From positions 1,236 through 65,235 of the forward strand of contig JAHFNH010000004.1 of assembly GCA_023267435.1 (NCBI GenBank): a stretch of DNA of 64,000 nucleotides, given 5' to 3'. Under the pieces are notes generated by a model, which saw only the letters and a list, made by a program, of their open reading frames with translations, had not been told where the DNA came from and ran no database searches. Positions 205 through 60,950 of the stretch are shown here, one piece after another. The position numbers and the translations under genes were made by a program. Source of the DNA: Candidatus Nomurabacteria bacterium (GTDB lineage Bacteria; Patescibacteriota; Minisyncoccia; Phycocordibacterales; UBA9973). Each line of letters starts with the position of its first letter. The stretch's first letter is position 1.

Positions 205-237
205 TTTCCGCCTCTACGGCGGATCAGCCGATGAGGC
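205..237. repeat. GC-rich hairpin repeat (HR family) copy 1: tttccgcctctacggcggatcagccgatgaggc
   Basis: Near-identical to 32726-32758 and the reverse complement of 53834-53866. Folds as a nested stem-loop gcctc/gaggc with an inner cggcg/cgccg stem. Confidence 0.7.
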
Positions 238-3707: not shown

Positions 3708-6700
3708 ATGTTTAAAAAAATATTTGTTTCTTCTTTTATTATCGTCGCATTAACTGTCGGCGCTTTTGGCATTTCACATAGTGTCGCTGCCGCTCAGACT
3801 TCTTTGTGGCAAGTTGCTCAGCAACAAGTCGGAGCAGGAGCATCATCCGATGCACTTGTTTCAGCTACAAAAAATCTTGCTACTAAGCACGATATAAAGA
3901 TCCCAGAATGGAGTTGGAATCTTTCTGGAAAATTTGATGTTCGAAAATTATCTTTGTCATTTTTGAAATCAATTGCATCTCTCGCTTCTTTTGGTAAATC
4001 AAATGTTGCGCAAGTAGTTCCCACTACTCCTACTTATACTTACCAATATAGTTTTGGAAGTGCTGGCCTTGGTAATGGACAACTTCGTTATACTCAGAAT
4101 CTTACCTCTGATTCAGACGGTAATATTTATGTTGCCGATGCTTACTACAATCGTCCACGTATTCAAAAATTTGATCAAAACGGAACCTTTCTATTAGGTT
4201 GGGGAGGTTACGGTACAGGTGACACTCAATTTGTTGACATAAGCAGTTTAACTTTCTTTAAAGGACAAATTTATGTTTCTGAAGTAAATGTTGATGATAT
4301 AAAAGTTTTTGATACTTCAGGAAATTTTGTTAGAAAAATAGCATTGAGTGTTTCTGGAGAAAGACAATATTTTGTGGCTAAGATAGCATTAGATTCAAGA
4401 GGTAACATTTATGTTCTTAGTAACAATACTACAAACGTTGTATATAAATTTACAAATTCTGGTACTTATGTTTCTTCTTTCCCTGTTGAGAATCCAAACT
4501 CTGCAAATGCCTTACAAGGCATCACAGTTGATTCCAATAATAATATTTATGTAACTGGATACAACTTTATTCGAGAATTTGATTTAAATGGTACTCTTGT
4601 AAAATCTTTTAATGTCAGTAGTTTATTCGGTTTTTATGGTATAACCGTTGATCTTTCTGGTTACGCTTTTGTTGGTGATAATAGTTACCAACAAGTGGAT
4701 GAATTTGACCCATCTGGAAATTATTTAGCAAGCTTTAAGAATCCAAGTGGTGCTGCAATTTATGGTGTGACTCGAATAGGTAATGGTAATATTTATGCTG
4801 CTGATTTTCCTAGTCAAGTAGATGTATTTATACCTTCTACTCCTTCTACAATTCCACCAATTATAACAATTAATGATCCACTTTATCCTACTGTTGTGAG
4901 TACTGGTCAGCAAATGGTTTTTGCTACTGCATTTACAAACGCAAGTGGTGCTGATATGGGAACTTGTTCATTTATATCAGGAGATGGAAGTATGGTTCCT
5001 ACATATATTGCTAAAGACAATAATCAGAATGATGTATTAGCTGCAAATTATACATATCTAAAAGATGGAACATTTTCAGCTTTATTTGAGTGTGTTTCTC
5101 CTCTCGCTGGTACTATTAGTAATACGCCTACTTCTATTATAGCTAGCACTTTAGACACAACTCCTCCAACAGTTGCTTCTACAAGTCCAACAGATTTATC
5201 TACAAATGTTTCTATTAATACAACCATTGAAGCAACCTTTAGTGAAGCGATAGATTGGAAAACTGCCAATAGCCAAAATGTTGTTCTTCTTGATCCGAAC
5301 GGTAATCAAGTTGAAGCAACCCTTTCTTCTAATAGTTCTATAGTAGGTGTTCTTTCTCCATCAGTACCACTAAATTACAACACAACTTATACAGTGATAA
5401 TTAAAAGAAATTTTAAAGATTTGGTTACAGGTGGCGTAGTAGCTGGTTTAACTGATCTAGCTGGAAATGAGATATCTGCTGATTTTGTTTGGTCATTTAC
5501 CACTGAAGCTAATCCAGTATCTGTAACAATTGGCGCAGTTCTTCCTACGGATACCACAGTCAATACAGCAACAGTATTTACTGCTAGTGTTACAAATCCA
5601 ACTGGCGTTGATTTAGGATCTTGTTATTTCTATGTAGGAATAAAATCTGTAGGTAATATACCTGCAACCTATGATGTGAAAGCTGGACAAGTCAGTGCAA
5701 CTTATACTTATGATACAGCTGGAGTTTATAATACCCAATTCTCTTGCAACGGTAGTCTTATAAGTGTTTCTGGTATTCCAACAGATGTAACTGTGACTAG
5801 TACTGTTCCTTCACCTTGTTCTATAACAATGGACAAAGCAAACCCAGATTTCGCTACATCATTAGGAACCATTTCTTTCGGTGGAGACGTTCTTGTTTCT
5901 TCCAACCCTAATTTATTATTCTCTTCAGATAACGGTGTTAAAAATGCTTGGAATAGTAAATATGATTTAAACTTGAATTCACCTACAGTCTACATGTTTG
6001 ACAAAGCAACAGGAGCGACTCTTCAGTTGACCAATGCCGCTTACGACGCAAAAACTCCTAGCTTTACATTCGACAAGCCAGCAGTAAATGTATTACTCTC
6101 AAAAGCAGCAGGTACTATGTCATACAAGTTTGATAATGGTGGAACAATCACCTTCGATGGTGGCGCCCTTGTTACATTTGCCGGACTAGAAGCATCTTTC
6201 GATGGTGGAACAACTTGGGTAACTTCTTACAAGACTGATCCTTATCCAAAAACATTCATTGTAAGAGATCCAAAAACACTAACAACTACAGACATCACAA
6301 ACGTATTACTTGATTCAAAAGCAGGAGCATTCTCTTTCTCAATAGCTCCAGTTTGTGTTGTTCCTCCTCCACCTTGTTCAACAACTACAACTCTTAACAA
6401 AGCAAACCCAGATTTCGCTACATCATTAGGAACCATTTCTTTCGGTGGAGACGTTCTTGTTTCTTCCAACCCTAATTTAGTAATGTCTGTAGACAATTCT
6501 CTTTGGGAAGGAAAACTTGATTTAAACCTTGTAGCCAAAACAAATATTGTTTATCTATGGGACAAACAAACAGGAGCTACTCTTCAGTTGACCAATGCCG
6601 CTTACGACGCAAAAACTCCTAGCTTCTCATTTGATAAACTACCTACAACAACTGTAGTTGAGTTATCAAAAATGAATACTACTTACACAGCATCAAATGG

Positions 6701-9059
6701 CGTAGTATTAACTTTTGATCCAAGTACATTCTCTTTAACTATCTTAAATGGATTAATGTCTGTAGATAATACAAAATTTGTAACCAGTCTAGGTAAAGCT
6801 GAATTATTAAAGTTCTCTACTTTGTATGTACAAGGTAAGTCAGGAGTAGTTACACCAGTAACTATGAAAGCTGATTCAAATCTAGGAATAATAGACTTTA
6901 CATTTACTACAGCAGATACTTGTGGAGTTTCTGATACAGTTGCACCAGTTACAACACTTACAAATGTTCCTGCAGTTGTAGACGGACAAAATGGTTGGTT
7001 TATAACTTCACCGGTTGTCGGCACACTTACTTGTGCTGATCTTCCAGCAGACAAAACTTCTTCCGGTTGTAACCAGACATTCTACACTCTTGATAAAGAC
7101 AGTGAAGTTTCAGGAGTCGCTCCAATAGATTTCAAAATGTACGACGGTATTCATTCTGTCTCTTATTACTCAAATGATAAAGCTGGAAATACAGAAGTTG
7201 CTCAAAGTGCTTCTTTCTACATAGATTCAGTTGCTCCTTCAACCAATGTTACTTTGATTGACAAGGACGCAGATAAGTTTATCGAAGCTGTTCAGGTTGA
7301 TGCAAAAGACGAAACTTCAGGTGTTGCTTATATGAATTATGTAGTCAGCCTAGGTGGAGTTGATGTTTACAAATCTGATCTTATAAAAGGATCATCCATA
7401 GCTATAGATCTTTCTCTTTGGACTAAAGCAGGTAAATCAATAACCATTACTTATTTCGCAACAGACAATGCTGGTAATACATCTAAAGATCAAGCTGTTG
7501 TTGCAAATTACGATATTTGTCCAGGAGTAGCAGGTCAATATCAAGGTTGTGGTAATAAGAATCATGTTATATCAATCGTTCATAATGTTAATAAAATTGC
7601 AAAATATGATGACAACGATGAATATAAGGGTGATCGAGCAAATTGCGGAATTACTACAGGTAAAGATGGAAAGAAATCAGTTACCGCAGAATGCGACAAA
7701 AATGTTTCAGGTGTAGTTGTTAAAGCCTTCCCATTTACTGTTGCTCAGAATATATTAAAGCCGATTAATGGTTGGGACGAAAATAATGATGGACAGCCTC
7801 GCCAGACATCTCTTGCTGCTCTCTATGCTTCAGGAGCTGAATCAAACTCATGTACTACTATTTCAGGTTCATGTGACATGGGTCTTCCAGTAGGAAAAGG
7901 TGTAGGTCAATTTACTAAATTCATTGATGTTGCTTTGTATACAGTTAAAGATCCATCTTCTGGTAAGAAGATTGATCTTTATCAATCAAAGGTAAAGAAT
8001 TTCATGGGTAAAGACCACGAGGATAATAAATCTGTTAGAGAAAGAGATGATAATCACAAGAGTTACTATAATTGTGACTCAAGTAGTAAATATCCTAACT
8101 TCAGTTCTGATGACTTAAGTAGAGAAAAAGTTTGTCAACAAGAAATTAATGACATGCATGGTACAAACGATGATAGTACAAACATAAATACTATCGTTAC
8201 TAAGACTTTCCGTTTCTTGAATCTTGTAAGTAAGGATTCAAATGGTAAAGAAAAAGATGAACCTTCTACAGCTGGTATTAAGAAAAATTCAGGATCAGAA
8301 CTAGATGTTATTTATCCAGAATATACTATTTGGGACGGTACAACAGCTCTTTATCCTTTCATTATGACTTCAGATTCTGATTGGACTACAGACGTATGTC
8401 TCCAAGTTCCAACAGGATATCAGATCTCGGCTGTTTATGATCAGGAAGGAAATATTATCTCAACTGATCAATGTCAACAGACATTTATCTCTGGTGAAAC
8501 TAAGACAGTTCTATTTTCAGTTAGCGATGTTGGTTCACCTGAACCTGATTTCACATTTTCTCTTCAAACCAAGCACCAAGAAGTTCAAACAGGAGGTGGA
8601 ACAGCACTTCAGCAAACTAACCAGACTCTTAGTGTAGGTGGTATCAGACAAGCAACTAAGGATGTTGTAGACACTCAGATAGCTCAAGCTATTGCTCCTG
8701 TAATCGCTCAGATTAATGCTGACAAGCAGGCTCAATTAGCTCAAGCTGTTCAAGTTCTAGCACCAGCTGTTAGTCCAGTTGTTATTGCTCAAGCTCCTAC
8801 ACCAATCAGCCAGGTTCAAGCAATAAACTTCTCTAATAATTTGAAATTAGGAAAGAAGGGAACTGATGTTAAGGCTCTTCAAGAATACCTTAACAATCAC
8901 GGCTTTGAAGTTTCCAAGTCAGGTGCAGGTTCAAATGGTATGGAATCTGAATACTTTGGAGGAAAAACAAAAGCTGCAGTCGTTAAATTCCAAAAGGCCA
9001 ACAAGCTTCCAGCTACTGGCTTCGTAGGAACAATGACTCGCTCGCTATTGAATAGATAA
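3708..9059 (+). CDS. giant secreted cell-surface protein (1783 aa): signal peptide, NHL-type beta-propeller repeats, Big_5-like Ig domain, duplicated internal domain, C-terminal PG_binding_1-like domain
   Basis: N-terminal hydrophobic signal. Repeated GNIYV(A/T)D/NxIxKF blades typical of NHL repeats. The TPPTVASTSPTDLSTNVSINTTIEATFSEAID segment matches the Big_5 pattern. The C-terminal LKLGKKGTDVKALQEYLNNHGF...VVKFQKANKLPATGFVG matches the peptidoglycan-binding domain pattern. Confidence 0.75.
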   Translation: MFKKIFVSSFIIVALTVGAFGISHSVAAAQTSLWQVAQQQVGAGASSDALVSATKNLATKHDIKIPEWSWNLSGKFDVRKLSLSFLKSIASLASFGKSNVAQVVPTTPTYTYQYSFGSAGLGNGQLRYTQNLTSDSDGNIYVADAYYNRPRIQKFDQNGTFLLGWGGYGTGDTQFVDISSLTFFKGQIYVSEVNVDDIKVFDTSGNFVRKIALSVSGERQYFVAKIALDSRGNIYVLSNNTTNVVYKFTNSGTYVSSFPVENPNSANALQGITVDSNNNIYVTGYNFIREFDLNGTLVKSFNVSSLFGFYGITVDLSGYAFVGDNSYQQVDEFDPSGNYLASFKNPSGAAIYGVTRIGNGNIYAADFPSQVDVFIPSTPSTIPPIITINDPLYPTVVSTGQQMVFATAFTNASGADMGTCSFISGDGSMVPTYIAKDNNQNDVLAANYTYLKDGTFSALFECVSPLAGTISNTPTSIIASTLDTTPPTVASTSPTDLSTNVSINTTIEATFSEAIDWKTANSQNVVLLDPNGNQVEATLSSNSSIVGVLSPSVPLNYNTTYTVIIKRNFKDLVTGGVVAGLTDLAGNEISADFVWSFTTEANPVSVTIGAVLPTDTTVNTATVFTASVTNPTGVDLGSCYFYVGIKSVGNIPATYDVKAGQVSATYTYDTAGVYNTQFSCNGSLISVSGIPTDVTVTSTVPSPCSITMDKANPDFATSLGTISFGGDVLVSSNPNLLFSSDNGVKNAWNSKYDLNLNSPTVYMFDKATGATLQLTNAAYDAKTPSFTFDKPAVNVLLSKAAGTMSYKFDNGGTITFDGGALVTFAGLEASFDGGTTWVTSYKTDPYPKTFIVRDPKTLTTTDITNVLLDSKAGAFSFSIAPVCVVPPPPCSTTTTLNKANPDFATSLGTISFGGDVLVSSNPNLVMSVDNSLWEGKLDLNLVAKTNIVYLWDKQTGATLQLTNAAYDAKTPSFSFDKLPTTTVVELSKMNTTYTASNGVVLTFDPSTFSLTILNGLMSVDNTKFVTSLGKAELLKFSTLYVQGKSGVVTPVTMKADSNLGIIDFTFTTADTCGVSDTVAPVTTLTNVPAVVDGQNGWFITSPVVGTLTCADLPADKTSSGCNQTFYTLDKDSEVSGVAPIDFKMYDGIHSVSYYSNDKAGNTEVAQSASFYIDSVAPSTNVTLIDKDADKFIEAVQVDAKDETSGVAYMNYVVSLGGVDVYKSDLIKGSSIAIDLSLWTKAGKSITITYFATDNAGNTSKDQAVVANYDICPGVAGQYQGCGNKNHVISIVHNVNKIAKYDDNDEYKGDRANCGITTGKDGKKSVTAECDKNVSGVVVKAFPFTVAQNILKPINGWDENNDGQPRQTSLAALYASGAESNSCTTISGSCDMGLPVGKGVGQFTKFIDVALYTVKDPSSGKKIDLYQSKVKNFMGKDHEDNKSVRERDDNHKSYYNCDSSSKYPNFSSDDLSREKVCQQEINDMHGTNDDSTNINTIVTKTFRFLNLVSKDSNGKEKDEPSTAGIKKNSGSELDVIYPEYTIWDGTTALYPFIMTSDSDWTTDVCLQVPTGYQISAVYDQEGNIISTDQCQQTFISGETKTVLFSVSDVGSPEPDFTFSLQTKHQEVQTGGGTALQQTNQTLSVGGIRQATKDVVDTQIAQAIAPVIAQINADKQAQLAQAVQVLAPAVSPVVIAQAPTPISQVQAINFSNNLKLGKKGTDVKALQEYLNNHGFEVSKSGAGSNGMESEYFGGKTKAAVVKFQKANKLPATGFVGTMTRSLLNR
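5833..5915 (+). repeat. intragenic repeat copy A (83 nt identical to 6397-6479)
   Basis: Exact nucleotide identity. Encodes KANPDFATSLGTISFGGDVLVSSNPNL. Confidence 0.9.
6397..6479 (+). repeat. intragenic repeat copy B (tandem domain duplication, ~564 nt periodicity)
   Basis: Exact identity to 5833-5915. A second shared block (caggagc.actcttcagttgaccaatgccgcttacgacgcaaaaactcctagctt) lies at 6010 and 6571. Confidence 0.9.
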
Positions 9060-10142: not shown

Positions 10143-11387
10143 ATGCAAACTCAAGAGTTAAAAAAATATAAAATTCCGGATAAGCCTGGAGTATATTTTT
10201 TCCTTAAAAATAAGGATATTTTTTATATTGGCAAAGCGACATCTTTAAAAGATAGAATAAAAAGTTATTTTAGTAATGATTTGTTTAATATGCGCGGACC
10301 TTTATTGGTGGATATGATAACCAAAGCGACAAGTATTAAATGGGTTGAAACTGATTCTGTTTTGGAAGCTCTGATTCTTGAGGCAAATTTTATCAAGAAA
10401 CATCAACCGATTTACAATACCAAAGAAAAGAGTGATAAGAGTTTCAATTATGTTTGTATTACAAGGGACACCTTACCTAAGGTAATTGTTGTTCGAGGAA
10501 AAGATTTAAATAAAAAACAAAAGAATTTTGGAGCCTTCGCCCTCGGAGGCATAAGGCAGGGAACCCACGACTCTGAAAATTCTTTTGTTTTTTACGATAA
10601 AGTTTTCGGCCCATATCCCAATGGTTCACAATTAAAAGAAGCACTAAAAATAGTGCGTCGCATTTTTCCATTTTTAGATGAAAAGAGTAAAAATAATTAT
10701 GAATTTTATAGACAATTAAAACTTGTTCCTGATGAGGGTAACTATAAGAAAAACATAAAAAATATAAAGTTATTTTTTGAAGGTAAAAAGAATAAAATCT
10801 TAAAAAATTTGGAAAAAGAAATGAGGGATTGTGCAAAAAGACATGAGTTTGAGAAAGCAGGGGAAATAAAAAAACAAATTTTTGCATTAAAACATATTCA
10901 AGATATTTCTTTAATTAAAGAAGATAAGATTACTAAAGAATTTTCTAAAGAAAATTTTCGCATTGAAGCTTATGACATAGCGCATATGAGCGGGGAAAAT
11001 ATGGTTGGCGTGATGGTGGTCATTGAAGATGGGGAAGTGAATAAAAAAGAATACCGGAAGTTTAAGATAAAAAATTACTCAAGTTCCAATGACGTTGGTG
11101 CATTAAAAGAAGTATTAGAGCGCAGGTTTGCTCATACAGAATGGATATACCCTAAACTAATGGTGATAGACGGAGGTAAGGCTCAGTTGAATATCGTTAA
11201 AAAATTCCAAAATGAAGTTGGTTTAGCAATACCAGTTGTGTCTGTGGTGAAAGACGAAAGACATAGGCCTAAAGCTATTTTAGGTGTTTCATCTGGTATC
11301 TCAGAGTCTTTGATACTTTTAGCTAATTCTGAAGCTCATAGATTTGCAATTTCGTATCATAGGAAATTACGTGGGAAGATTATATAA
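10143..11387 (+). CDS. uvrC: excinuclease ABC subunit C (UvrC), truncated form lacking the C-terminal HhH domain
   Basis: GIY-YIG motif (GVYFFLKNKDIFYIGKATSLKDRIKSYF). UvrBC-interaction motif (FEKAGEIKKQIFALKHIQ). RNase H-like endonuclease domain (RIEAYDIAHMSGENMVGVMVV...EAHRFAISYHRKLRGK). The ORF ends right after this domain. Confidence 0.8.
   Translation: MQTQELKKYKIPDKPGVYFFLKNKDIFYIGKATSLKDRIKSYFSNDLFNMRGPLLVDMITKATSIKWVETDSVLEALILEANFIKKHQPIYNTKEKSDKSFNYVCITRDTLPKVIVVRGKDLNKKQKNFGAFALGGIRQGTHDSENSFVFYDKVFGPYPNGSQLKEALKIVRRIFPFLDEKSKNNYEFYRQLKLVPDEGNYKKNIKNIKLFFEGKKNKILKNLEKEMRDCAKRHEFEKAGEIKKQIFALKHIQDISLIKEDKITKEFSKENFRIEAYDIAHMSGENMVGVMVVIEDGEVNKKEYRKFKIKNYSSSNDVGALKEVLERRFAHTEWIYPKLMVIDGGKAQLNIVKKFQNEVGLAIPVVSVVKDERHRPKAILGVSSGISESLILLANSEAHRFAISYHRKLRGKII
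10518..10587. repeat. palindromic element (AT-rich inverted arms caaaagaatttt, GC-rich core) inserted in frame in uvrC
   Basis: Arms caaaagaattttggag / ctctgaaaattcttttg are inverted complements. The core gccctcggaggc is itself a perfect palindrome. Related copies at 40132-40219 and 60207-60268. Confidence 0.75.
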
Positions 11388-11395: not shown

Positions 11396-12319
11396 ATGTC
11401 TCAAGATATTACTAATAAAATAAGAGTTGGAGTGTTGAGGGGTGGTGTGGATTCATGCTATAAAAAATCTTTAACAGAAGGCGGAAACGTTATAGCTCAC
11501 ATTCTTGAAAATTTATCGGATAAATATAAACCCGTTGATATTTTAATTGACACAAATGGTATCTGGCATGTGAATGGTGTCCCAATCGAACCAGAAGGAA
11601 TTGCGGGCAAAGTTGATGTTATTTGGAACACGTTACATCCTAATTTATCTAAAGTTTTTAAAGATTTATCTATTCCTATAGTTGGTGTAAATTATTTAAA
11701 TTTTTTATCACCAGATAATCGAGTTATGTTAGAAAAACACATGAAAGAAATTAATGTAAAAATGCCCAGGCATTTGATTCTTCCTTTATACAAAGAAGAC
11801 ATTGATGGAACAAAAGAAAAATATGCGACACAAAAAGCAAAAGATGTTTTTGAAAAGTTTTCTTCACCTTGGATAGTAAGGCCTTTAGTCTCTGATGTTA
11901 GTATGGGTGTTCATATAGCAAACACTTTTCCAGAATTAGTTAATGCTATAATGGATGGTATAAAACATAATCATGGAATTGTGGTTGAAGAATTAATAAT
12001 TGGAAAGTTTGCTTCGGTGCATACACTCGCTGGTTTTAGAAATAAAGATATATATTCTTTTCCAATTATTGAAAAGTTTTCTTCATTGGAAAAAGAAAAA
12101 CTTATATTTATTGCACAAAAAATATATGAACATATTGATACTAATGATTATTTGAAGACAGATTTAATTTTACATCCAACTAAAGGAATTTATCTTTCAG
12201 ATATTTCATCTTACCCTAGTTTAAGTGAAGATTCTCATTTGAATCAGTCTTGTGAATCTGTGGGTGCCAAAACTCATCATGCACTAGCTTCTATACTAGA
12301 AGCTAGTTTTAGCGAGTAA
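11396..12319 (+). CDS. ddl: D-alanine--D-alanine ligase-like ATP-grasp enzyme
   Basis: The N-terminal KIRVGVLRGGVDSCYKKSL resembles the Ddl N-terminus. ATP-grasp-sized (307 aa). Lies upstream of a secA-murE-murD-murC cluster. Confidence 0.55.
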   Translation: MSQDITNKIRVGVLRGGVDSCYKKSLTEGGNVIAHILENLSDKYKPVDILIDTNGIWHVNGVPIEPEGIAGKVDVIWNTLHPNLSKVFKDLSIPIVGVNYLNFLSPDNRVMLEKHMKEINVKMPRHLILPLYKEDIDGTKEKYATQKAKDVFEKFSSPWIVRPLVSDVSMGVHIANTFPELVNAIMDGIKHNHGIVVEELIIGKFASVHTLAGFRNKDIYSFPIIEKFSSLEKEKLIFIAQKIYEHIDTNDYLKTDLILHPTKGIYLSDISSYPSLSEDSHLNQSCESVGAKTHHALASILEASFSE

Positions 12320-12893: not shown

Positions 12894-12927
12894 GTGCATC
12901 TTCGGCACATCCGCCGTCGAGGCGGAT
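12894..12927 (+). promoter_or_regulatory. two GC-rich hairpins in the secA leader (tgtgc-atcttcg-gcaca; atccgcc-gtcga-ggcggat), related to the HR hairpin family
   Basis: ccgccgtcgaggcgg resembles ccgcctctacggcgg of the HR repeat. Located 36 nt upstream of the secA ATG. Confidence 0.4.
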
Positions 12928-20246: not shown

Positions 20247-21164
20247 ATGAAAAACAATAAAGGTTTTACGATGGTTGCGATAGCTCTGATTATGTTAGCT
20301 GTTTTTGTTGTGGGTGGCAGTGTTATTTATTTGATTACAAAAGGTTCAACACCTTCTTCACAAAATACAAACACATCAGTAAATAATTCTCCACAAGTGA
20401 ACCAGAACAGTGTTACAAATACAAATACACCTGTTCAAAATAATCCAGTTTCTAACAATCCAGCACCGACTGTCATAGGTAGTAATGCAGATATAAGTAA
20501 ACCTAAAACAGACTGTTTACCAACAACTACTCCTTCAATAACAGTTCTTTATCCAAATGGTGGAGAGGCATTTACTGTTAATCAAAAGATCATAATCAAG
20601 TGGTCGAGTTGTAATGTAAATAATGTAAATATTGCTTTACTAAGTGGAGGAAAAGATTTTGGAAATTTAACAATGACACCCATTTCTGCATCACCAGGTT
20701 CATTCCAATGGATGGCTTCGAATCCTGCTCAGGCTTTTACTCAATCAGGTACTAATAACTATCAGATTGGTATTACAAGTCAGTCACCTAATGTTCTGGT
20801 AAAAAGTAATACATTTACAATTCAACCTCAAGTTCAAACACAACCAATCACATTAATACAACCATTAGATCAAGTTGTGTGGACTGGCGGAAATCAATAC
20901 GATATAAGCTGGATTGCAGGTACAGGAAATGTAGCATTATCTGCTTGCAGTACAAACTATACAAATACAGGATATTCTCCTCAGCAATGCGTGCCTATCG
21001 TAAGCAACCTATCTTCTAGTGGTAGTTATAATTACAGTCTTCCTTCCAGTACCAGTTCGAATTCCGGTTTTGTAGAAATAAAAGCGACAGATTCAACAAG
21101 CACTTATGATAGTCATATTGTGAAAGTAAATAACTCTTCAATATTACCTTTAATAGGTGAGTAA
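20247..21164 (+). CDS. secreted pilin-like paralog 1 (prepilin-like N-terminus MKNNKGF...)
   Basis: Short basic leader ending in G then F plus a hydrophobic helix (class-III-signal-like, but no Glu at +5). Conserved DCLPTTTPS...PNGGEAFTVNQKIIIKWSSCN module shared with the next two genes. Confidence 0.55.
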   Translation: MKNNKGFTMVAIALIMLAVFVVGGSVIYLITKGSTPSSQNTNTSVNNSPQVNQNSVTNTNTPVQNNPVSNNPAPTVIGSNADISKPKTDCLPTTTPSITVLYPNGGEAFTVNQKIIIKWSSCNVNNVNIALLSGGKDFGNLTMTPISASPGSFQWMASNPAQAFTQSGTNNYQIGITSQSPNVLVKSNTFTIQPQVQTQPITLIQPLDQVVWTGGNQYDISWIAGTGNVALSACSTNYTNTGYSPQQCVPIVSNLSSSGSYNYSLPSSTSSNSGFVEIKATDSTSTYDSHIVKVNNSSILPLIGE

Positions 21165-21176
21165 TAATTAATTTTT

Positions 21177-21782
21177 ATGAAAAAATATTCAAAAGGATTT
21201 AGTAGTATTACGCTCATTGTTTTAATTGTACTGGTAGTAGGTTTTTATTATTTTTCAACAATAAAAACGAATACAAATACGAACCAAGTAAATAAAAATA
21301 TTGTTACAAATAATTCTGTAAATAGTGCAGACAGTAATGCAGAAATAAATAAACCTAAAACAGGTTGTTTATCTTCAACAACTCCCTGGATTAAGATTTT
21401 GTCCCCAAACGGTGGAGAGATATATTCTGTTGGTCAGCAGATTACAGTAACCTGGACGAGTTGTAATATACCTTCGAATTCTCTAATTTCATTTCGTCTT
21501 TATTTTAACAATAGTAGTACTATACTTGAAAATTCACTCACAGGTCCTGGTCCTGGAAATGCTGTAAATAATGGAATAAAAAATATTATTATTCCTAATA
21601 TTACAAATAACCCAACACATGGTTTAAACATTATGTGGTCTGGATGGAGTTTAGGCGGGTCTTATTTTAAAATTAAAGCATTTGTAGTTGCACCTATTTC
21701 TGTTAATGGTACTATTGTTGGCACTCCTACTTCTTCTGGAATAGAGGATTTATCTGATAATACGTTTACAATAAATCCTTAA
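21177..21782 (+). CDS. secreted pilin-like paralog 2
   Basis: MKKYSKGFSSITLIV... N-terminus. Shares the KPKTGCLSSTTPWIKILSPNGGEIYSVGQQITVTWTSCN module. Confidence 0.55.
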   Translation: MKKYSKGFSSITLIVLIVLVVGFYYFSTIKTNTNTNQVNKNIVTNNSVNSADSNAEINKPKTGCLSSTTPWIKILSPNGGEIYSVGQQITVTWTSCNIPSNSLISFRLYFNNSSTILENSLTGPGPGNAVNNGIKNIIIPNITNNPTHGLNIMWSGWSLGGSYFKIKAFVVAPISVNGTIVGTPTSSGIEDLSDNTFTINP

Positions 21783-21875
21783 TTAATTTATCTAGATTGT
21801 CTTTTTAATAGGTGAGTAAGATTATAAGTGTGTTATTACTAAATAAGTTATTAATAGTTAATAAAAAAATTTTAA

Positions 21876-32211: not shown

Positions 32212-32649
32212 ATGAAAAATTTTAAAAAATTTATTTACTCACTTTTAATATTATCTATTTTTATTTTACCAGCAATTTCTTTGGCTCAATATACAGGTGG
32301 TCCAGGTGGTGGCAGTGCTTCTTCAAATGTAGTCAGTTCTTCTTGTTCCTTTCCAGCCAGTCCCACATTTGGAACTTTTGTAGATTTTATTACTTGCAAT
32401 ATTAATAAATCAATTCTTCCTCTTTTGTTTACTTTAGCTTTTGCAGCTTTTGTCTGGGGAATAGTGCAGTATGTCATTCTAGGTGCTGAAGAAGAGGCGA
32501 AAAGGGAAAAAGGCAGGCAGTTTATGATTTGGGGTATTATCGCTTTGGCCGTGATGATCTCAGTTTGGGGTATTGTTAATATATTCACTAATACTTTCGG
32601 TATAAAAAACACCAGTGTTCCCATTATTCCACAGCTTCCGACGCACTAG
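32212..32649 (+). CDS. TrbC/VirB2-like small protein, paralog 2
   Basis: Signal (…AISLAQ). Helix-loop-helix with GAEEEAKREKGRQFMIWGIIALAVMISVWGIVNIFTNTFGI. Confidence 0.5.
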   Translation: MKNFKKFIYSLLILSIFILPAISLAQYTGGPGGGSASSNVVSSSCSFPASPTFGTFVDFITCNINKSILPLLFTLAFAAFVWGIVQYVILGAEEEAKREKGRQFMIWGIIALAVMISVWGIVNIFTNTFGIKNTSVPIIPQLPTH

Positions 32650-32670
32650 TGTTTGTTTCCAAGGGTTTTA

Positions 32671-32679
32671 TGTTATAAT
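32671..32679 (+). promoter_or_regulatory. extended -10 promoter (TGtTATAAT) for the 32787 pilin-like gene
   Basis: Perfect extended -10. The predicted TSS places the HR hairpin in the 5' UTR. Confidence 0.45.
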
Positions 32680-39644: not shown

Positions 39645-40868
39645 ATGGTTAAATCAAACAAAATATATATGGATTACGCCAGTGGCGCTTGTTCAGATCC
39701 AGCCAACCCGGGGGCTATCCATGAATTTGGAGTAAAAGCAAAGAAAAGATTGAATGAAGCAAGAGAAGAAATTGCTGGAATTTTAGGCGCGCATTCTGAT
39801 GAAATAATTTTTACCTCTGGAGCAACTGAAAGTAACAATTTGGTGATTTTAGGTGTTTTGAAAAAGTATCTTCAAAATTTTTCCCATTTGCCACACATTG
39901 TAACTACCAACATAGAACACGCATCCGTATTGGAAGTTTGTAAATATTTAGAGAAAACAAAACAAGCAGAGATAACTTTTGTGCCAGTTGAATCAAACGG
40001 AATAGTTTCTCCAGAAAAAATAAAAAAAGCGTTGAAAAAAAATACTATTTTAGTTTCTGTGATGTATGCGAATAATGAAATTGGCACAATCCAACCAATA
40101 CGAGAAATTGCAAAAGAAATTAGGCACTTTAGGAAAACGAAAAATTCAGCAGAATTTTCTCGGGTCCTCGGAAGGGGGTCAGCCAGACCACTCGAAAATT
40201 CTCTGAATTTCTCGTTTCCCATTTTTCATACTGATGCTACTCAGGCGATAAATTATTTGCCGATCAATGTCGAGAAGCTCGGTGTTGATTTGTTATCCTT
40301 CAATGGATTAAAAATTTACGGACCGAGCGGTGTTGGAGTTTTGTATGAAAAAAGGAATACGCCCATCAGTAGTATTATGTTTGGTGGTGATCAAGAAAGA
40401 GGATTGAGACCCGGAACAGAAAATATTAATGGAATTATTGCTTTGGCTAAAGCTTTGAAAATTACTGAACAAATAAAAGATAAAGAAGTAAAACGCTTAA
40501 CCAAGCTTCGAGATTATTTTACTAAAAAATTATTAAAATTTAATTTTGTTGTTAATGGTAGTTTGGAAAATAGATTACCCAATAATATAAATATCACTAT
40601 TCCAAAAACCCCGAGTGATCTTTTAGTAATAGAACTTTCAGCAAAGGGAATTATGGCTTCTGTAAAAAGCGCTTGTAAGTCTGGCGATGAAAAATCTTCT
40701 CATGTCATACAAGCTATTCGTGAAGCGAAAACAGGGAAGTCTTTGTTGGATAAAGAAGTAGACGGATCTATTAGATTTTCTCTGGGCAGACAGACGACTA
40801 AGGCTGATATTGATTACACAGTTAAAGCTTTGTCTCAAATTTTGACTAAACTAAAAAAATGGTACTAA
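39645..40868 (+). CDS. cysteine desulfurase (IscS/NifS, class V aminotransferase) with an internal palindromic-element insertion
   Basis: TSGATESNN, HASVLE, FHTDATQA, SFNGLKIYGP (PLP-Lys) motifs. An extra ~30-aa segment (FRKTKNSAEFSRVLGRGSARPLENSLNFSFP) sits between the conserved EIRH and FHTDATQ. Confidence 0.8.
   Translation: MVKSNKIYMDYASGACSDPANPGAIHEFGVKAKKRLNEAREEIAGILGAHSDEIIFTSGATESNNLVILGVLKKYLQNFSHLPHIVTTNIEHASVLEVCKYLEKTKQAEITFVPVESNGIVSPEKIKKALKKNTILVSVMYANNEIGTIQPIREIAKEIRHFRKTKNSAEFSRVLGRGSARPLENSLNFSFPIFHTDATQAINYLPINVEKLGVDLLSFNGLKIYGPSGVGVLYEKRNTPISSIMFGGDQERGLRPGTENINGIIALAKALKITEQIKDKEVKRLTKLRDYFTKKLLKFNFVVNGSLENRLPNNINITIPKTPSDLLVIELSAKGIMASVKSACKSGDEKSSHVIQAIREAKTGKSLLDKEVDGSIRFSLGRQTTKADIDYTVKALSQILTKLKKWY
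40132..40219. repeat. palindromic element (arms ggaaaacgaaaaattcagcagaattttctcg / cgaaaattctctgaatttctcgtttcc, GC-rich core) in frame inside the cysteine desulfurase gene
   Basis: 27 of 31 arm positions are complementary. The core cctcggaag...ccactcgaaaattct resembles the uvrC copy. Confidence 0.75.
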
Positions 40869-59801: not shown

Positions 59802-60950
59802 TTGATAAAGCAAAAGAAAACTATATTTGTCGGTATGTCGGGTGGGGTGGATTCTTCTGTTTCCGCTGCTATTTTAAAAGACCAAGGATATGATGTCGTT
59901 GGGGTTTTTATTCGTACCTGGCATCCTGATTTTTTGGTTTGTAATGAAGAAGACGAACGCCGCGACGCTATGCGCGTCGCGGCGCATTTAGATATTCCAT
60001 TTCTGACTTTCGATCTTGCAGATGTATATAAAAAAGAAGTGGCTGATTATATGATTTCTGAATATAAGGCAGGACGCACTCCAAACCCAGATGTGATGTG
60101 TAATAAAGAAGTGAAGTTTGGCGCTTTTCTAAAAAAGGCACTAGAGATGGGTGCGGATTATGTGGCGACAGGGCATTATGCGCAGGTTTCATTAAATAAA
60201 AATTTAAAAGATTTTGGAGCCTTCGCCCTTGGAGAATTAAAGAGAGGGGGCTCTAAAAATCTTTCAAATTTTTCTTTAATTAAAGGCAAAGACCCTTCCA
60301 AAGATCAATGTTATTTTTTGTGGACATTAAAACAAGAACAACTAAAACATATTTTATTTCCAGTGGGACATTTAAATAAAACAGCTGTGAGAAAACTGGC
60401 GAAGAAATATAAATTACCAGTAGCAGAAAAGAAAGATAGTCAGGGTATATGTTTCTTGGGTGATATTGATTTGAAAGATTTTTTGAAACACTATATTAAA
60501 GAAAAAAGAGGGAAAATTTTGCTAGAAAATGGTGAAGAAATTGGATTCCATGACGGTGCGGTTTTCCATACTCTCGGTGAACGTCATGGTTTTACAATTA
60601 CCAAAAAAGGTCCGAATGATAGTGCGTATTATATTGTCGGAAAAGACGTAAAGAAAAATATTTTAGTTGTTTCGCAGAACCCCTCCCAACCCTCCCCTTA
60701 TCAAGGGGAGGGCGAGGGTGGGGTAATTAAAAAATTAGATAATGTGAATTTTATTTCAGGTATTCCAAATGAAAATAAAAATTATACAGCGCAGATAAGA
60801 TATCACGGAGAATTTTTAGATTGTAAAATTAAAATTACTGGAAAAACAACCGTTGAAGTAATTTTTGAAAAACCAGTATTAGTAGCGGGAGGTCAATCGG
60901 TAGTCTTTTATGATAAAGATATTTGTCTTGGCGGGGGAGTAATTATTTAG
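59802..60950 (+). CDS. mnmA: tRNA-specific 2-thiouridylase MnmA, carrying two in-frame palindromic-element insertions
   Basis: PP-loop VGMSGGVDSSV. CNKEVKFGAFL…ATGHYA, DPSKDQCYFL motifs. Extra segments FGAFALGELKRGGSKNLSNF and PSQPSPYQGEGEGG. Confidence 0.85.
   Translation: MIKQKKTIFVGMSGGVDSSVSAAILKDQGYDVVGVFIRTWHPDFLVCNEEDERRDAMRVAAHLDIPFLTFDLADVYKKEVADYMISEYKAGRTPNPDVMCNKEVKFGAFLKKALEMGADYVATGHYAQVSLNKNLKDFGAFALGELKRGGSKNLSNFSLIKGKDPSKDQCYFLWTLKQEQLKHILFPVGHLNKTAVRKLAKKYKLPVAEKKDSQGICFLGDIDLKDFLKHYIKEKRGKILLENGEEIGFHDGAVFHTLGERHGFTITKKGPNDSAYYIVGKDVKKNILVVSQNPSQPSPYQGEGEGGVIKKLDNVNFISGIPNENKNYTAQIRYHGEFLDCKIKITGKTTVEVIFEKPVLVAGGQSVVFYDKDICLGGGVII
60207..60268. repeat. palindromic element (arms aaaagattttggagcc / ggctctaaaaatcttt) in frame inside mnmA
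   Basis: Shares ttttggagccttcgccct with the uvrC copy. Inverted AT-rich arms around a GC-rich core. Confidence 0.75.
60679..60724. repeat. GC-rich palindrome (cccaaccctcccc-ttatcaa-ggggagggcgagggtgggg) in frame inside mnmA
   Basis: Same arm motif (accctcccc / ggggaggg..gggtgggg) as repeat B at 24975-25064. Sharp GC spike within an AT-rich gene. Confidence 0.7.

What the first reader, a model, noticed from the sequence alone, without database searches (positions are those of the whole stretch)
10518..10587. Palindromic element inserted in frame in uvrC (family also in iscS-like and mnmA)
Within the conserved linker after the UvrC GIY-YIG domain sits a 70-nt unit. It has AT-rich inverted arms (caaaagaattttggag / ctctgaaaattcttttg) around a GC-rich core that includes the perfect 12-nt palindrome gccctcggaggc. 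The reading frame is preserved, and it adds QKNFGAFALGGIRQGTHDSENSFV before the conserved VFGPYP motif. Two further copies with the same architecture and shared sequence (ttttggagccttcgccct; cctcgga[ag]g…ccac..ctcgaaaattct) lie inside the cysteine desulfurase gene (40132-40219) and mnmA (60207-60268). These peptide-coding palindromes in housekeeping genes parallel the Rickettsia palindromic elements.
Basis: partly seen in the sequence, partly recalled or inferred. Interest (0 to 1): 0.85.

Follow-up and report, generated by a model that had tools for sequence, protein, structure and literature searches.

The report
In-frame hairpin repeats in housekeeping genes
Small hairpin-forming DNA repeats sit in frame inside essential genes (uvrC, a cysteine desulfurase, mnmA) of this tiny-genome CPR bacterium and its relatives, adding about 22 extra amino acids each, much as the "palindromic elements" of Rickettsia do but with features of their own.

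Summary
All three sites are long AT-armed hairpins with GC-rich loops, in frame, and missing from orthologues. Details need correction. "gccctcggaggc" is not a palindrome. The hairpins are longer than stated (10511-10594, 40132-40220, 60198-60273). The iscS copy belongs to a different loop family.

Collection scans found 31 non-redundant canonical copies of the uvrC-type core in Nomurabacteria/Paceibacteria genomes. Twenty-five lie in genes (PheT, LeuRS, AspRS, RsmH, LigA, PolA, MnmA, UvrC, an FAD oxidase), all sense and in one frame. Six lie in intergenic spacers.

Filled versus empty orthologues differ by exactly 66 nt in uvrC (two comparisons), and the iscS-like site holds 22 inserted codons. 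The central core is nearly invariant. The outer arm positions are copy-specific yet complementary: 10.5 of 12 positions pair within a copy, against 3.6 of 12 between copies. The right arm includes a mirror copy of the host's left flank.

In two related genomes the same element has its loop inverted and its arms re-homogenised. That is the signature of replication template switching. The iscS loop recurs with 34 of 34 identical bases in another gene, read in another frame, so this is a DNA repeat and not a protein module.

Best reading: selfish, translated, RPE-like repeats. I found no description of them in CPR.

The parts
10143..11387 (+). uvrC host gene. It is a short form of 414 aa: GIY-YIG, UVR motif and RNaseH-like endonuclease domain, with no C-terminal HhH.
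   Evidence: ORF and translation; Pfam; PDB matches to UvrC domains.
10511..10594 (+). Complete uvrC hairpin element (type A, 'GGAGCC' subtype): 19-bp perfect stem and 46-nt loop.
   Evidence: Hairpin scan; fold -30.4 kcal/mol, z = -4.4; 89.6% identity over 48 nt to the type A consensus from other genomes.
10511..10529 (+). Left arm TAAAAAACAAAAGAATTTT. It encodes KKQKNF and aligns codon for codon with the host sequence of empty orthologues.
10530..10575 (+). GC-rich loop or core, GGAGCCTTCGCCCTCGGAGGCATAAGGCAGGGAACCCACGACTCTG. It encodes GAFALGGIRQGTHDS.
10576..10594 (+). Right arm AAAATTCTTTTGTTTTTTA. It is the mirror (reverse-complement) copy of the left arm, encodes ENSFVF, and has no counterpart in empty orthologues.
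10530..10595 (+). The 66 nt (22 codons, GAFALGGIRQGTHDSENSFVFY) that are extra relative to the empty sites of the nearest relatives L003 and L004.
   Evidence: Codon alignment. The AF2 model gives residues 125-147 pLDDT below 50 and no secondary structure.
39645..40868 (+). IscS/NifS-like cysteine desulfurase host gene (Aminotran_5).
40132..40220 (+). Complete iscS hairpin element ('type D' loop family): 27-28-nt arms and a 34-nt loop.
   Evidence: Fold -35.0 kcal/mol on the + strand and -44.3 kcal/mol (z = -7.7) on the - strand.
40160..40193 (+). Type D loop TCGGGTCCTCGGAAGGGGGTCAGCCAGACCACTC. It is 34/34 identical to a copy inside a ComM/Mg-chelatase-like gene on another metagenome contig (L037 7411-7444), where it is read in a different frame.
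40149..40214 (+). The 22 codons (AEFSRVLGRGSARPLENSLNFS) that the empty orthologue L047 lacks. They comprise an 11-nt inner left stem, the 34-nt loop, an 11-nt inner right stem and a ~10-nt mirror copy of the host's left flank.
   Evidence: Codon alignment with L047 (empty) and L048 (filled); orthologue alignment.
59802..60950 (+). mnmA host gene (tRNA 2-thiouridylase).
60198..60273 (+). Complete mnmA hairpin element, a decayed type A copy: 18-bp stem (one mismatch) and a 40-nt loop at 60216-60255.
   Evidence: nhmmer E = 1.3e-5. A canonical type A copy sits at the same site in L026.
60204..60266 (+). Roughly the 21 codons (LKDFGAFALGELKRGGSKNLS) that are extra relative to the MnmA of L008. 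The boundary is ambiguous by a few nt because of the AT-rich repeats.
   Evidence: a 20-aa gap against solved MnmA structures.

Best explanation
These are copies of small, non-autonomous, selfish palindromic DNA repeats that live inside the genes of Paceibacteria-type CPR bacteria.

Structure. Each family has a GC-rich core of 34-48 nt with a short conserved AT-rich inner stem (consensus about R-A-W-T-T-Y / R-A-A-W-T-Y). Several families exist: type A in uvrC and mnmA, type D in iscS, and type B and others in relatives. A new copy adds about 66 nt (22 codons) at an AT-rich Lys/Asn/Phe codon run in a loop or inter-domain linker. Because the length is a multiple of three and the used frame has no stop, the gene stays intact. 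The element is simply translated as a disordered surface loop.

Shown here:
- The element is repeated DNA found in many unrelated genes and in intergenic spacers.
- It is gained and lost as a 66-nt unit.
- It is always in frame.
- Its outer arms are copy-specific and complementary.
- The right arm contains a mirror copy of the host's left flank.
- Loops can invert in place while the arms stay complementary.

Inferred:
- The hairpin is created, extended and kept perfect by replication template switching. The nascent strand folds back on itself, which copies one flank into the other, homogenises the arms and flips the loop.
- Cores spread between sites by the same copy-choice route. A nascent strand jumps by AATT-type microhomology onto another copy, copies the loop, snaps back and returns. 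Resident hairpins act as preferred landing pads.
- No benefit to the host is required.
For: Repeated DNA, not chance:
- The 18-mer is shared exactly by uvrC and mnmA (0.05 expected).
- The type A core was found 15 times in eight genomes and in 25 more metagenome loci, giving 31 non-redundant copies.
- The hosts are PheT, RsmH, an FAD oxidase, PolA and AspRS (Pfam); LeuRS, LigA, MnmA and UvrC; and six operon spacers.

Gain and loss:
- uvrC differs by +66 nt from L003/L004.
- L002 differs by +66 nt from L045/L046, with all flanking host codons aligned.
- IscS has 22 inserted codons relative to L047.
- MnmA has +21 codons relative to L008.
- LigA has +22 aa relative to E. coli LigA.
- Fourteen of 40 UvrC orthologues have no insert here or at most four extra residues, and many IscS orthologues are empty.

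DNA level, not protein level:
- The iscS loop is 34/34 identical in a ComM-like gene, with different arms and a different reading frame.

Translated and tolerated:
- Of the 31 copies, 25 lie in genes, all in one frame and none disrupting its gene; the other six lie in intergenic spacers.
- The inserts sit in linkers or loops.
- The AF2 model gives pLDDT below 50 at residues 125-147.
- The dominant stem mismatch pairs a synonymous third-position A in the left arm with a second-position C in the right arm. This turns mirror-coded Phe/Leu into Ser/Pro (14 cases).

Arms:
- Outer positions 9-20 pair at 10.5/12 within a copy and 3.6/12 between copies.
- 82% of cells are paired against 60% in shuffles (0/500), with 195 double-change cells against 77.

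Template-switch signature:
- At UvrC site 2, L003 and L004 carry the same loop in opposite orientation (40/42 identical). The segment length is the same, and the arms are 19 bp and 26 bp, different between the two genomes but complementary within each.
- Arm homogenisation and spacer inversion are the published outcomes of template switching between inverted repeats (PMC8604942, PMC8794818).

Hot-spot reuse by different families:
- UvrC site 1, the IscS site, MnmA sites 1 and 2, and LeuRS site b each hold different families in different lineages.

No known RNA family matches.
Against: - The central ~33 nt of type A are almost invariant, third codon positions included, in species whose host proteins are only 60-80% identical. 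Ten of these positions were not part of the metagenome search pattern. A purely passive copy-choice process does not explain such constraint. It suggests a trans-acting factor that reads the core, or very recent spread.
- All 31 type A copies are co-oriented with transcription, including all six intergenic ones. Peptide selection cannot explain the intergenic six.
- Copy number per genome is low: three in this 64-kb window, and four or five canonical copies per MAG.
- No donor-to-recipient event was observed directly.
- Translation was not shown experimentally.
- It is not resolved whether the mirror copy of the flank is made at insertion or later.
- Copies were found by exact match to the core. 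This inflates the apparent conservation of the core.
Confidence: 0.5

Rival explanations
1. Same selfish in-frame repeat, but mobilised by a dedicated enzyme rather than by replication errors. Candidates are a single-strand (HUH/Y1, IS200/IS605-type) transposase or another nuclease/recombinase. It would recognise the conserved core or hairpin and nick at a measured distance, producing the inverted flank copy much as terminal resolution of a hairpin end does.
For: - The ~33-nt core is near-invariant across genera, as expected for a protein recognition site.
- Geometry is constant: all 28 aligned copies fit a gapless 96-nt frame, with pairing fading 18-20 bp from the loop.
- Orientation bias is strict, 31/31. 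That is typical of ssDNA transposons coupled to replication (own knowledge of IS608/ISDra2).
- An OrfB_IS605 (TnpB)-like gene lies next to uvrC in one relative (L045), so IS200/IS605 relatives do exist in this clade.
Against: - No transposase was found in the window or in any other of the ~416 kb of related loci; tblastn with the L045 TnpB-like protein matched only L045 itself.
- The TnpB Pfam hit is weak, and TnpB is not the transposase.
- The core does not occur in viral contigs.
- IS200/IS605 derivatives have subterminal hairpins at both ends and no terminal inverted repeats, unlike these elements.
- The loop inversion and arm re-homogenisation in L003/L004 need no enzyme (PMC8604942).
Confidence: 0.25
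2. The hairpin is a functional cis-acting nucleic-acid signal kept by selection. It would present a conserved 33-nt loop on mRNAs or on single-stranded DNA, for example as a binding or processing site for a CPR-specific protein. Being in frame would then be just the price of sitting in compact genomes.
For: - It shows the classic pattern of a functional structured element: invariant loop plus covarying stem.
- The core is conserved at synonymous positions across species.
- All copies are in sense orientation, including the six in operon spacers.
- The same sites are occupied in many species: PheT in seven or more, and RsmH in at least five non-redundant orthologues.
Against: - Many copies have decayed loops but intact stems, such as the window's mnmA copy and many UvrC and IscS orthologues.
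- Close relatives lack the element altogether.
- The same site holds unrelated loop families in different lineages.
- The type B loop is found in both orientations.
- Stem pairs are broken at synonymous sites.
- Related sequences can show covariation without any structural selection, and template switching produces it mechanically (PMC8794818).
- No Rfam family matches.
Confidence: 0.15
3. The segment is an ordinary, lineage-specific protein linker or a functional peptide module (AFALGDIGQGTH), selected at the protein level. The DNA palindromy would be incidental.
For: The peptide AFALGDIGQGTH is conserved in all 25 genic type A copies, always in one frame.
Against: - Intergenic copies carry the same DNA.
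- The type D loop is identical in DNA but read in two different frames in two genes.
- The type B loop is read on either strand.
- Third codon positions are conserved.
- The insert is predicted to be disordered.
- The nearest relatives lack it.
Confidence: 0.03
4. The element is not translated. It would be excised from the mRNA, or bypassed by the ribosome as the 'byp' GC-hairpins of Magnusiomyces mitochondria and T4 gene 60 are.
For: - It is a GC-rich hairpin in an AT-rich genome.
- Matching AAT codons flank the core on both sides.
- The hairpin is strong, -27 to -44 kcal/mol.
Against: - Every genic copy keeps the frame and is free of stops (25/25), and inserted lengths are multiples of three. 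That constraint would be unnecessary if the segment were removed or skipped.
- The mismatch pattern shows selection at the amino-acid level on the arms.
Confidence: 0.03
5. Chance similarity or an assembly artefact.
For: None found.
Against: The same elements occur in independent assemblies from NCBI, ENA, JGI and Logan. All statistics lie far beyond shuffled controls.
Confidence: 0.01

Closest known systems
Rickettsia palindromic elements (RPE-1 to RPE-10; Ogata et al. 2000/2002, as summarised in PMC2229807 and PMC10969869)
   Same: - Short palindromic repeats that form long stem-loops.
- Inserted in frame in conserved housekeeping genes of a reduced, AT-rich genome.
- Also present in intergenic DNA.
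- Encode a family-specific peptide.
- Tolerated in loops, with no associated transposase known.
   Different: - Different phylum (Patescibacteria/CPR, not Rickettsia).
- Smaller: a 66-nt gain and an 84-96-nt hairpin, against 105-146 bp.
- The conserved part is the loop, not the arms.
- The outer arms are copy-specific and partly copied from the host flank.
- Loops flip in place.
- The same sites are reused by several families.
- Copy number per genome is low.
- Sequence homology to RPEs could not be tested here.
Bacterial MITEs (Correia/NEMIS, ERIC, RUP, BOX)
   Same: Small, non-coding for a transposase, with inverted ends and stem-loop transcripts. [quoted passage not shown]
   Different: - MITEs have family-wide conserved TIRs matching a parent IS, and direct target-site duplications (often TA).
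- Here only about 8-9 bp of the stem are conserved.
- No direct duplication beyond the palindromic AATT is visible.
- The flank is duplicated in inverted orientation.
- No parent IS was found.
Template-switch mutations at inverted repeats (quasipalindrome correction; PMC8604942, PMC8794818, PMC7202029)
   Same: They create reverse-complement copies of neighbouring sequence, homogenise the arms and invert spacers. All three are seen here.
   Different: Template switching is a local mutational process. It is not known as a way of spreading a conserved 34-48-nt core to many unlinked genes and species.
IS200/IS605-derived palindrome-associated elements (PATEs) and REP/REPIN-RAYT systems
   Same: Hairpin-based, single-strand-DNA logic, with strong orientation bias and small non-autonomous units.
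   Different: - REPs are extragenic, 20-40 bp, with conserved arms and GTAG/CGTC tags (PMC3733652).
- PATEs have separate left-end and right-end hairpins.
- Neither produces in-frame coding inserts with flank-derived arms.
- No TnpA or RAYT was seen.
Mobile GC clusters, double-hairpin elements and 'byp' elements of fungal mitochondria (own knowledge: Weiller 1989; Paquin 2000; Lang 2014)
   Same: GC-rich palindromic mini-elements that invade AT-rich, reduced genomes, including coding regions.
   Different: Byps break the frame and are skipped by the ribosome. Here the frame is always kept. The organisms and sequences are unrelated.

Membership tests
Rickettsia palindromic elements (RPE) | Occurs in Rickettsia, with sequence homology to one of the RPE consensus families | not testable with these tools
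   No Rickettsia or RPE sequences are available in the collections or in Rfam. The host is a Paceibacteria/Nomurabacteria-type CPR bacterium, so common descent is unlikely.
Rickettsia palindromic elements (RPE) | Length 105-146 bp with ~12-bp conserved terminal inverted repeats (PMC2229807) | tested here: not met
   The gain is 66 nt and the hairpin 76-96 nt. Only ~8-9 bp of the stem are conserved, and the outer stem is copy-specific.
Rickettsia palindromic elements (RPE) | In-frame insertion in conserved protein genes, encoding a family-specific peptide, plus intergenic copies | tested here: met
   25/25 genic copies are in one frame and 6 copies are intergenic. Hosts were confirmed by Pfam and PDB.
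Rickettsia palindromic elements (RPE) | Insert lies on the protein surface, away from catalytic residues | tested here: met
   AF2 gives pLDDT below 50 with no secondary structure at UvrC residues 125-147. The inserts lie in inter-domain linkers or loops in IscS, MnmA, PheT, PolA, the FAD oxidase and ComM. This rests on prediction and alignment, not experiment.
MITE (classical, transposase-mobilised) | Family-wide conserved terminal inverted repeats matching a parent insertion sequence | tested here: not met
   Cross-copy complementarity of arm positions 9-20 is at background, 3.6/12. No parent IS was found in ~416 kb of related DNA.
MITE (classical, transposase-mobilised) | Direct target-site duplication | tested here: inconclusive
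   Only the palindromic AATT(Y) is repeated at both ends, and it is direct and inverted at once. The longer duplicated flank is inverted, not direct.
MITE (classical, transposase-mobilised) | Small (<300 bp), no ORF of its own, multiple copies, presence/absence polymorphism | tested here: met
REP / REPIN (RAYT-mobilised) | Extragenic 20-40-bp palindromes with a conserved GTAG or CGTC tag, and a RAYT gene in the genome | tested here: not met
   Most copies are intragenic (25 of 31). No such tag is visible at the ends in the aligned copies, though this was not searched for formally. The presence of a RAYT could not be assessed because whole genomes were not available.
IS200/IS605-derived PATE | Distinct subterminal hairpins at the left and right ends, insertion 3' of a fixed tetra- or pentanucleotide, and TnpA (Y1) in the genome | tested here: inconclusive
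   The left junction is always R-A-W-T-T-Y and orientation bias is 31/31. However, the element is a single hairpin, and no TnpA was seen. Only a weak TnpB-like gene was found, in L045.
Integron attC site | R''/L''...L'/R' boxes with the GTTRRRY core, downstream of cassettes | tested here: not met
   No GTTRRRY/RYYYAAC boxes are visible in the aligned copies, though this was not searched for formally. The conserved part is central rather than terminal, and the copies sit inside housekeeping genes.
Template-switch-generated hairpins (TSM) | Reverse-complement copy of adjacent sequence, arm homogenisation, spacer inversion | tested here: met
   The right arm mirrors the host's left flank. Arms are complementary within a copy but differ between orthologues. 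The loop is inverted between L003 and L004.
Translational bypass elements (byp / T4 gene 60 type) | The insert interrupts the frame or carries stops and is skipped between matched codons | tested here: not met
   The frame is kept and there are no stops in 25/25 genic copies, and the inserted lengths are multiples of three.
Known RNA families (Rfam 15) | Match to a curated covariance model | tested here: not met
   In the whole window only tRNAs reach the gathering score. Around the elements there are only sub-threshold miRNA-like hairpin matches.

The most novel reading that the evidence does not exclude
The near-invariant 33-nt core may be read by a dedicated, still unknown CPR factor. There are two versions of this reading.

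(a) A structure-specific nuclease or transposase inserts a hairpin and creates an inverted target-site duplication. That transposition chemistry has not been described for bacterial repeats.

(b) A host protein or RNA uses the sense-strand hairpin as a tag on mRNAs or single-stranded DNA of information-processing genes. The genes carrying it include aminoacyl-tRNA synthetases, LigA, PolA, UvrC, RsmH and MnmA. That would amount to a regulon or processing signal embedded in coding sequence.

The strict sense orientation (31/31, including the intergenic copies), the constant geometry and the conservation across genera are not excluded by, and are only weakly explained by, the passive template-switch model.
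Probability: 0.2. Interest if true: 0.9.

Novelty: new variant of a known kind. Interest (0 to 1): 0.72.

Why it matters
- CPR/Patescibacteria have some of the smallest and most streamlined genomes known. Even so, their core replication, repair and translation genes carry several families of translated hairpin repeats.
- This extends the 'selfish DNA inside protein-coding genes' phenomenon beyond Rickettsia to a major uncultured radiation.
- It explains much of the puzzling length variation among CPR orthologues: 393-503 aa for UvrC and 368-478 aa for IscS in this clade.
- It warns annotators and structure predictors that such ~22-aa segments are repeat-derived.
- It gives a natural system in which template switching visibly builds, maintains and flips hairpins inside genes.
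- The flank-mirroring arms and the invariant core are features that, if enzyme-driven, would point to a new insertion mechanism.
- The elements could also serve as strain-level markers in metagenomes.

Tried and rejected
- **Short-peptide protein searches.** A concatenated type A + type B peptide profile found nothing, with only 13 word candidates. The exhaustive HMMER search with the 32-aa uvrC insert gave 0 hits at E <= 0.001. The peptides are too short for database-scale E-values, so host range had to be obtained from DNA pattern scans instead.
- **Rfam.** There is no family match.
- **Viral contigs.** The core is absent, so there is no hint of a phage vector.
- **TnpB lead.** The OrfB_IS605-like gene next to uvrC in L045 has no relative in the window or the other loci. 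It is not linked to the element.
- **Core similarity to other DNA.** A blastn-short search of the three loop cores against all held DNA returned only other element copies and short chance matches; tRNAs and other RNAs were not compared specifically.
- **'Arms are a long ancestral TIR'.** Rejected. The outer arms show no cross-copy similarity, and the left arm aligns with host codons of the empty alleles.
- **'Both arms are brought in by the element'.** Rejected, because the net gain is 66 nt and not loop plus two arms.
- **'Pure mirror model, with the whole left arm being host sequence'.** Rejected for type D, where 11 nt of the inner left stem are part of the insert.
- **G·U-wobble asymmetry as evidence for an RNA-level stem.** The excess of A:C over G:T mismatches (25 against 7) turned out to be a codon-position effect, not a strand-of-folding signal.
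- **Other long-loop hairpins in the window** (11993-12072 and 55835-55922). They show no similarity to the families and no length difference from orthologues where checked. They are treated as chance.
Full report
**1. What is at the coordinates**

They lie in frame in a 414-aa UvrC at 10143-11387. Pfam places GIY-YIG at residues 15-91, the UVR motif at 218-251 and the RNaseH-like endonuclease domain at 268-403. There is no HhH domain.

The inverted repeat is longer than reported. A perfect 19-bp stem, TAAAAAACAAAAGAATTTT / AAAATTCTTTTGTTTTTTA, encloses a 46-nt GC-rich loop, spanning 10511-10594.

The two other sites have the same build:
- 40132-40220, in an Aminotran_5 cysteine desulfurase (39645-40868). 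It has 27-28-nt arms and a 34-nt loop.
- 60198-60273, in mnmA (59802-60950). It has 18-nt arms and a 40-nt loop.

All three fold much better than dinucleotide shuffles on either strand (z = -3.3 to -7.7, with 0 of 200 shuffles as stable). The 18-mer TTTTGGAGCCTTCGCCCT is shared exactly by the uvrC and mnmA copies, where 0.05 occurrences are expected by chance.

One stated detail is wrong. gccctcggaggc is not self-complementary.

An HMM built from the three copies finds no fourth copy in the 64-kb window.

**2. The inserts are absent from orthologues**

Solved IscS structures align on both sides of residues 161-192 and have about 6 residues where the window protein has 32. Solved MnmA structures show a 20-residue gap at the mnmA element.

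The best UvrC relatives in the protein collection are named Minisyncoccia, Paceibacterota or Nomurabacteria (CPR). Their lengths range from 393 to 503 aa.

In an alignment of 40 of them, 14 have nothing at this site or at most four extra residues. These include the two nearest relatives, at 81% and 80% identity. The others carry 20-35 extra residues that fall into recognisable peptide families:
- type A, NFGAFALGDIGQGTHxSxNS
- type B, NFSRSSLPRVRGGAHTxKNF
- type C, NFYARGSQPVLGEGRRTKNL
- decayed or nested versions of these

The IscS site behaves likewise. Many orthologues read IRHFNKINSKKVLFHTDAT. Others hold at least six different insert families.

**3. Size and content of the gain**

Codon-level comparisons give clean junctions.
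- The window uvrC has exactly 22 extra codons (66 nt) relative to L003 and L004. There are nine aligned codons on the left (DLNKKQKNF against DLLQNRGNF) and six on the right.
- In a second clade, L002 (type A) has exactly 22 extra codons relative to L045 and L046. Here DLQKKKKN aligns with DLAKKKEK, and FSSVFGP aligns with FSSVFGP.
- In IscS the window has 22 inserted codons relative to L047, which has one extra codon of its own.
- MnmA has +21 codons relative to L008.
- A LigA copy is +22 aa relative to E. coli LigA.

In each case the left arm, or its outer part, is host sequence that is also present in the empty allele. The right arm has no counterpart and is the reverse complement of that left flank. 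For type D the insert breaks down as an 11-nt inner left stem, the 34-nt loop, an 11-nt inner right stem and a ~10-nt mirror of the host flank.

**4. A wider family**

One scan of species-representative genomes with the uvrC-type core gave 15 matches in eight Nomurabacteria/Paceibacterota/Patescibacteria MAGs, with up to five per genome. One scan of JGI metagenomes gave 25 more loci. After removing near-duplicates and adding the window's own uvrC copy, 31 copies remain.

Twenty-five of them lie in long ORFs:
- PheT, at the same site in seven or more species
- RsmH
- LigA
- LeuRS
- AspRS
- the PolA 5'-3' exonuclease region
- an FAD-linked oxidase
- MnmA, at two sites, one of which is the window's own site (L026)
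- UvrC, at two sites

These hosts were identified. All 25 are in sense orientation and in the same reading frame. Four of the six frames of the core are free of stops.

Six copies lie in short spacers between co-oriented genes. By motif inspection these are rpmE-prfA, gatC-gatA, rnc-smc, purH-guaA and two others. All six are co-oriented with the flanking genes.

No copy disrupts a gene. Where Pfam domains could be placed, the inserts fall in inter-domain linkers or loops. An AlphaFold model of the window UvrC, built on the 40-sequence alignment, gives pLDDT below 50 and no secondary structure for residues 125-147, between confidently folded parts.

**5. Anatomy: constant core, private arms**

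Twenty-eight copies align without a single gap in a 96-nt frame. Columns 32-64 are invariant or nearly so. This includes about ten positions that were not part of the metagenome search pattern. Only the innermost ~8 arm positions (R-A-W-T-T-Y) are conserved.

A short inner helix covaries between copies: GGCG/CGCC, AGCG/CGCT, GCCG/CGGC, AGAAAA/TTTTCT.

Further out the arms have essentially random sequence but pair within each copy:
- Positions 9-20 pair at 10.5 of 12 within a copy and 3.6 of 12 between copies.
- On the named structure, 82% of cells pair against 60% in shuffles (0 of 500 shuffles reach this).
- There are 195 cells with changes on both sides, against 77 ± 7 in shuffles.
- Sliding the partner by one to three columns drops pairing to 38-52%.
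- Pairing fades 18-20 bp from the loop.

The commonest stem defect pairs a left-arm A at a synonymous third codon position with a right-arm C at a second codon position. There the exact mirror would encode Phe or Leu, and the observed codon encodes Ser or Pro (14 cases). This pattern makes sense only if the arms are translated. It also shows that perfect pairing is not rigidly selected.

**6. The iscS copy is a different family, and the unit is DNA**

The type A model does not detect the iscS element. Its peptide (EFSRVLGRGSARPLEN) resembles inserts at the same site in IscS orthologues (FSRVLGLEPDQLEN, FFQVLGSPRPARPD). It also resembles inserts in some UvrC orthologues.

Its 34-nt loop is 100% identical to a segment inside a ComM/Mg-chelatase-like gene on an unrelated metagenome contig (L037). 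There it has different private arms (CAGCAATCCCGATGAAATTTTT / AAAAATTTATCGGGATTGCTG). It is also read in another frame: SGPRKGVSQTTQ instead of SRVLGRGSARPLE.

The repeated unit is therefore nucleotide sequence, not a protein module.

**7. Hairpin dynamics seen directly**

At a second UvrC site, L003 and L004 carry the same type B element with the loop in opposite orientations. Their uvrC genes are 82.5% identical in DNA. The reverse complement of the L004 loop matches the L003 loop at 40 of 42 positions.

The segment has the same length in both genomes and the ORF is intact in both (HDIFPRLTLPGVPGGAHTQKKYYD against HDIFSACGPHSVLREGLSAEKYHE). The arms differ between the two genomes but are complementary within each: 19 bp in L003 and a perfect 26 bp in L004.

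Orthologous PheT and IscS copies likewise have diverged arms that still pair.

[quoted passage not shown] The same process is known to create reverse-complement copies of neighbouring sequence and to keep stems perfect (PMC8794818).

The type C peptides in some UvrC orthologues look like flipped B-type loops.

**8. Hot spots**

The same positions are occupied by different loop families in different lineages:
- UvrC site 1 holds types A, B and C, and nested copies.
- The IscS site holds at least six families.
- MnmA site 1 holds type A in the window and in L026 and another family in L020. In L008 there is only a short remnant with an 8-bp inverted repeat.
- MnmA site 2 holds type A in L008 and L020, another family in L026, and a small GC hairpin in the window.
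- LeuRS site b holds type A in L007 and type B in L027.

These are documented. Sites are therefore reused or overwritten, not hit once and inherited.

**9. Most likely mechanism**

Shown: the element is a repeated DNA unit that is gained as about 66 nt. It stays in frame, carries a flank-derived mirror arm, and has arms and loop that are remodelled in place.

Inferred: the elements are selfish. They persist because a 22-codon, stop-free, mostly hydrophilic insert in a linker is nearly neutral.

Also inferred is that the hairpin is built and maintained by template switching. A plausible route for spread runs as follows:
1. A nascent strand ending in an A-rich ...RAATT run leaves its template.
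2. It pairs by microhomology with the inner stem of another copy.
3. It copies the loop and the right inner stem.
4. It snaps back on its own left stem and copies 10-16 nt of its own flank.
5. It returns to the original template.

Resident hairpins would be favoured landing pads. This would explain both hot-spot reuse and family replacement.

I rate this whole package at about 0.5.

**10. What it does not explain, and the rivals**

Three observations are not well explained by a purely passive process:
- the near-invariant core across genera
- the strict sense orientation, including six of six intergenic copies
- the constant geometry

They keep two rivals alive.

The first is mobilisation by a dedicated enzyme that reads the core (0.25). 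A weak OrfB_IS605-like gene sits next to uvrC in L045. However, nothing similar is present in the window or in the other ~416 kb examined.

The second is a host function for the sense-strand hairpin (0.15). Evidence against a function includes:
- decayed loops with intact stems
- empty close relatives
- replacement of one family by another at the same site
- type B loops found in both orientations
- stem pairs broken at synonymous sites

A protein-level module, RNA excision or ribosomal bypass, and artefact are each contradicted by the data (sections 4-6).

A caveat applies throughout. Copies were ascertained by exact match to the core, so core conservation is overstated. Orthologue alignments show that many copies have decayed.

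**11. Comparison with known systems, and novelty**

In behaviour the elements are the CPR counterpart of Rickettsia palindromic elements, whose features are summarised in PMC2229807 and PMC10969869. They are not members of that family by size or TIR structure, and homology could not be tested.

They fail the classical MITE criteria: there is no family-wide TIR, no direct target duplication and no parent IS. They do not match REP/REPIN elements, attC sites, byp elements or any Rfam family.

Full-text searches for such elements in Patescibacteria, CPR or Parcubacteria found nothing. That does not prove they are undescribed.

I classify them as a new variant of a known kind: in-frame palindromic repeats with a conserved loop, flank-mirrored private arms, in-place loop inversion and multi-family hot spots.

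**12. Verdict**

The open question is how the core spreads and why it is so conserved. Interest 0.72.

Noticed in passing
window 60678-60722 (mnmA, residues ~293-307): A second, unrelated insert lies in the same mnmA gene: a small GC-rich hairpin encoding NPSQPSPYQGEGEGG (CCCTCCCC...GGGGAGGG). It sits exactly where L008 and L020 carry a type A element and L026 another family. Similar 'PSPL.KGEG' or 'PLLIKERG' inserts occur in PheT (L012), LeuRS (L007) and UvrC orthologues.
   Followed up: partly
window 208-228 (+), 12905-12925 (-), 32726-32760 (+), 53832-53866 (-): A GC-rich motif, CCGCCTCTACGGCGGATC..., occurs four times where 0.03 are expected. Two copies extend to a 35-nt double mini-hairpin. 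The 32726 and 53832 copies lie in AT-rich spacers ~30 nt upstream of ORF starts; the 12905 copy overlaps the predicted start of the 12894 ORF and the 208 copy lies ~500 nt upstream of the 727 ORF. It could be a 5'-leader or promoter-associated element, or another repeat family.
   Followed up: partly
UvrC orthologue alignment A2; no window coordinates: Further recurrent insert peptides occur at other UvrC positions in relatives: KPARIATQNVAGG, IFxPAPFSDYRVGPSD(RKISHENK), RSDLKGAQGPTF / LDLKGVQDPTL, TPWR, and a ~30-aa insert inside the GIY-YIG domain. These suggest several more repeat families in this clade.
   Followed up: no
L045 106-1431 (-), immediately upstream of uvrC: A 441-aa gene with a weak OrfB_IS605 (TnpB) Pfam hit lies in a relative whose uvrC is empty at site 1. 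No homologue was found in the window or the other loci.
   Followed up: partly
L018 3236-3292 (= L040 10653-10709, L042 6003-6059): A 16-bp inverted repeat, GAGGATTTTCCTTCAT...ATGAAAGAAAATCCTC, lies inside the conserved RsmH motif GFSFMKQEPLLMTMKENP. It is a hairpin in core coding sequence, not an insert, and may be an in-situ template-switch product.
   Followed up: no
window 10143-11387: The UvrC of this clade is short (393-503 aa; 414 aa here) and lacks the C-terminal (HhH)2 DNA-binding domain of canonical UvrC. uvrA (727-3327) lies upstream, separated by a 1783-aa Big_5/PG_binding surface protein and a dCache protein.
   Followed up: partly
window 5821-6637; 20478-22223; 32524-33473: There are internal direct repeats (90% identical, ~560-nt spacing) in the giant 3708-9059 ORF. 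Three consecutive paralogous ORFs (20247-22946) share 60-88% identical segments. Three small adjacent ORFs (32212-33564) share a conserved C-terminal membrane-like segment.
   Followed up: no
window 36653-37238 (-) and 44568-44650 (+): There is a cluster of four tRNA genes on the minus strand plus one on the plus strand. These are the only Rfam matches in the window that reach the gathering score.
   Followed up: no
L008 MnmA site 1 (codons NLKQSTVSSL): The 'empty' allele still has an 8-bp inverted repeat (AACTTGAA ... TTCAAGTT) around a 12-nt spacer, at the position where other species carry full elements. It may be a solo-stem remnant left after loop loss.
   Followed up: partly
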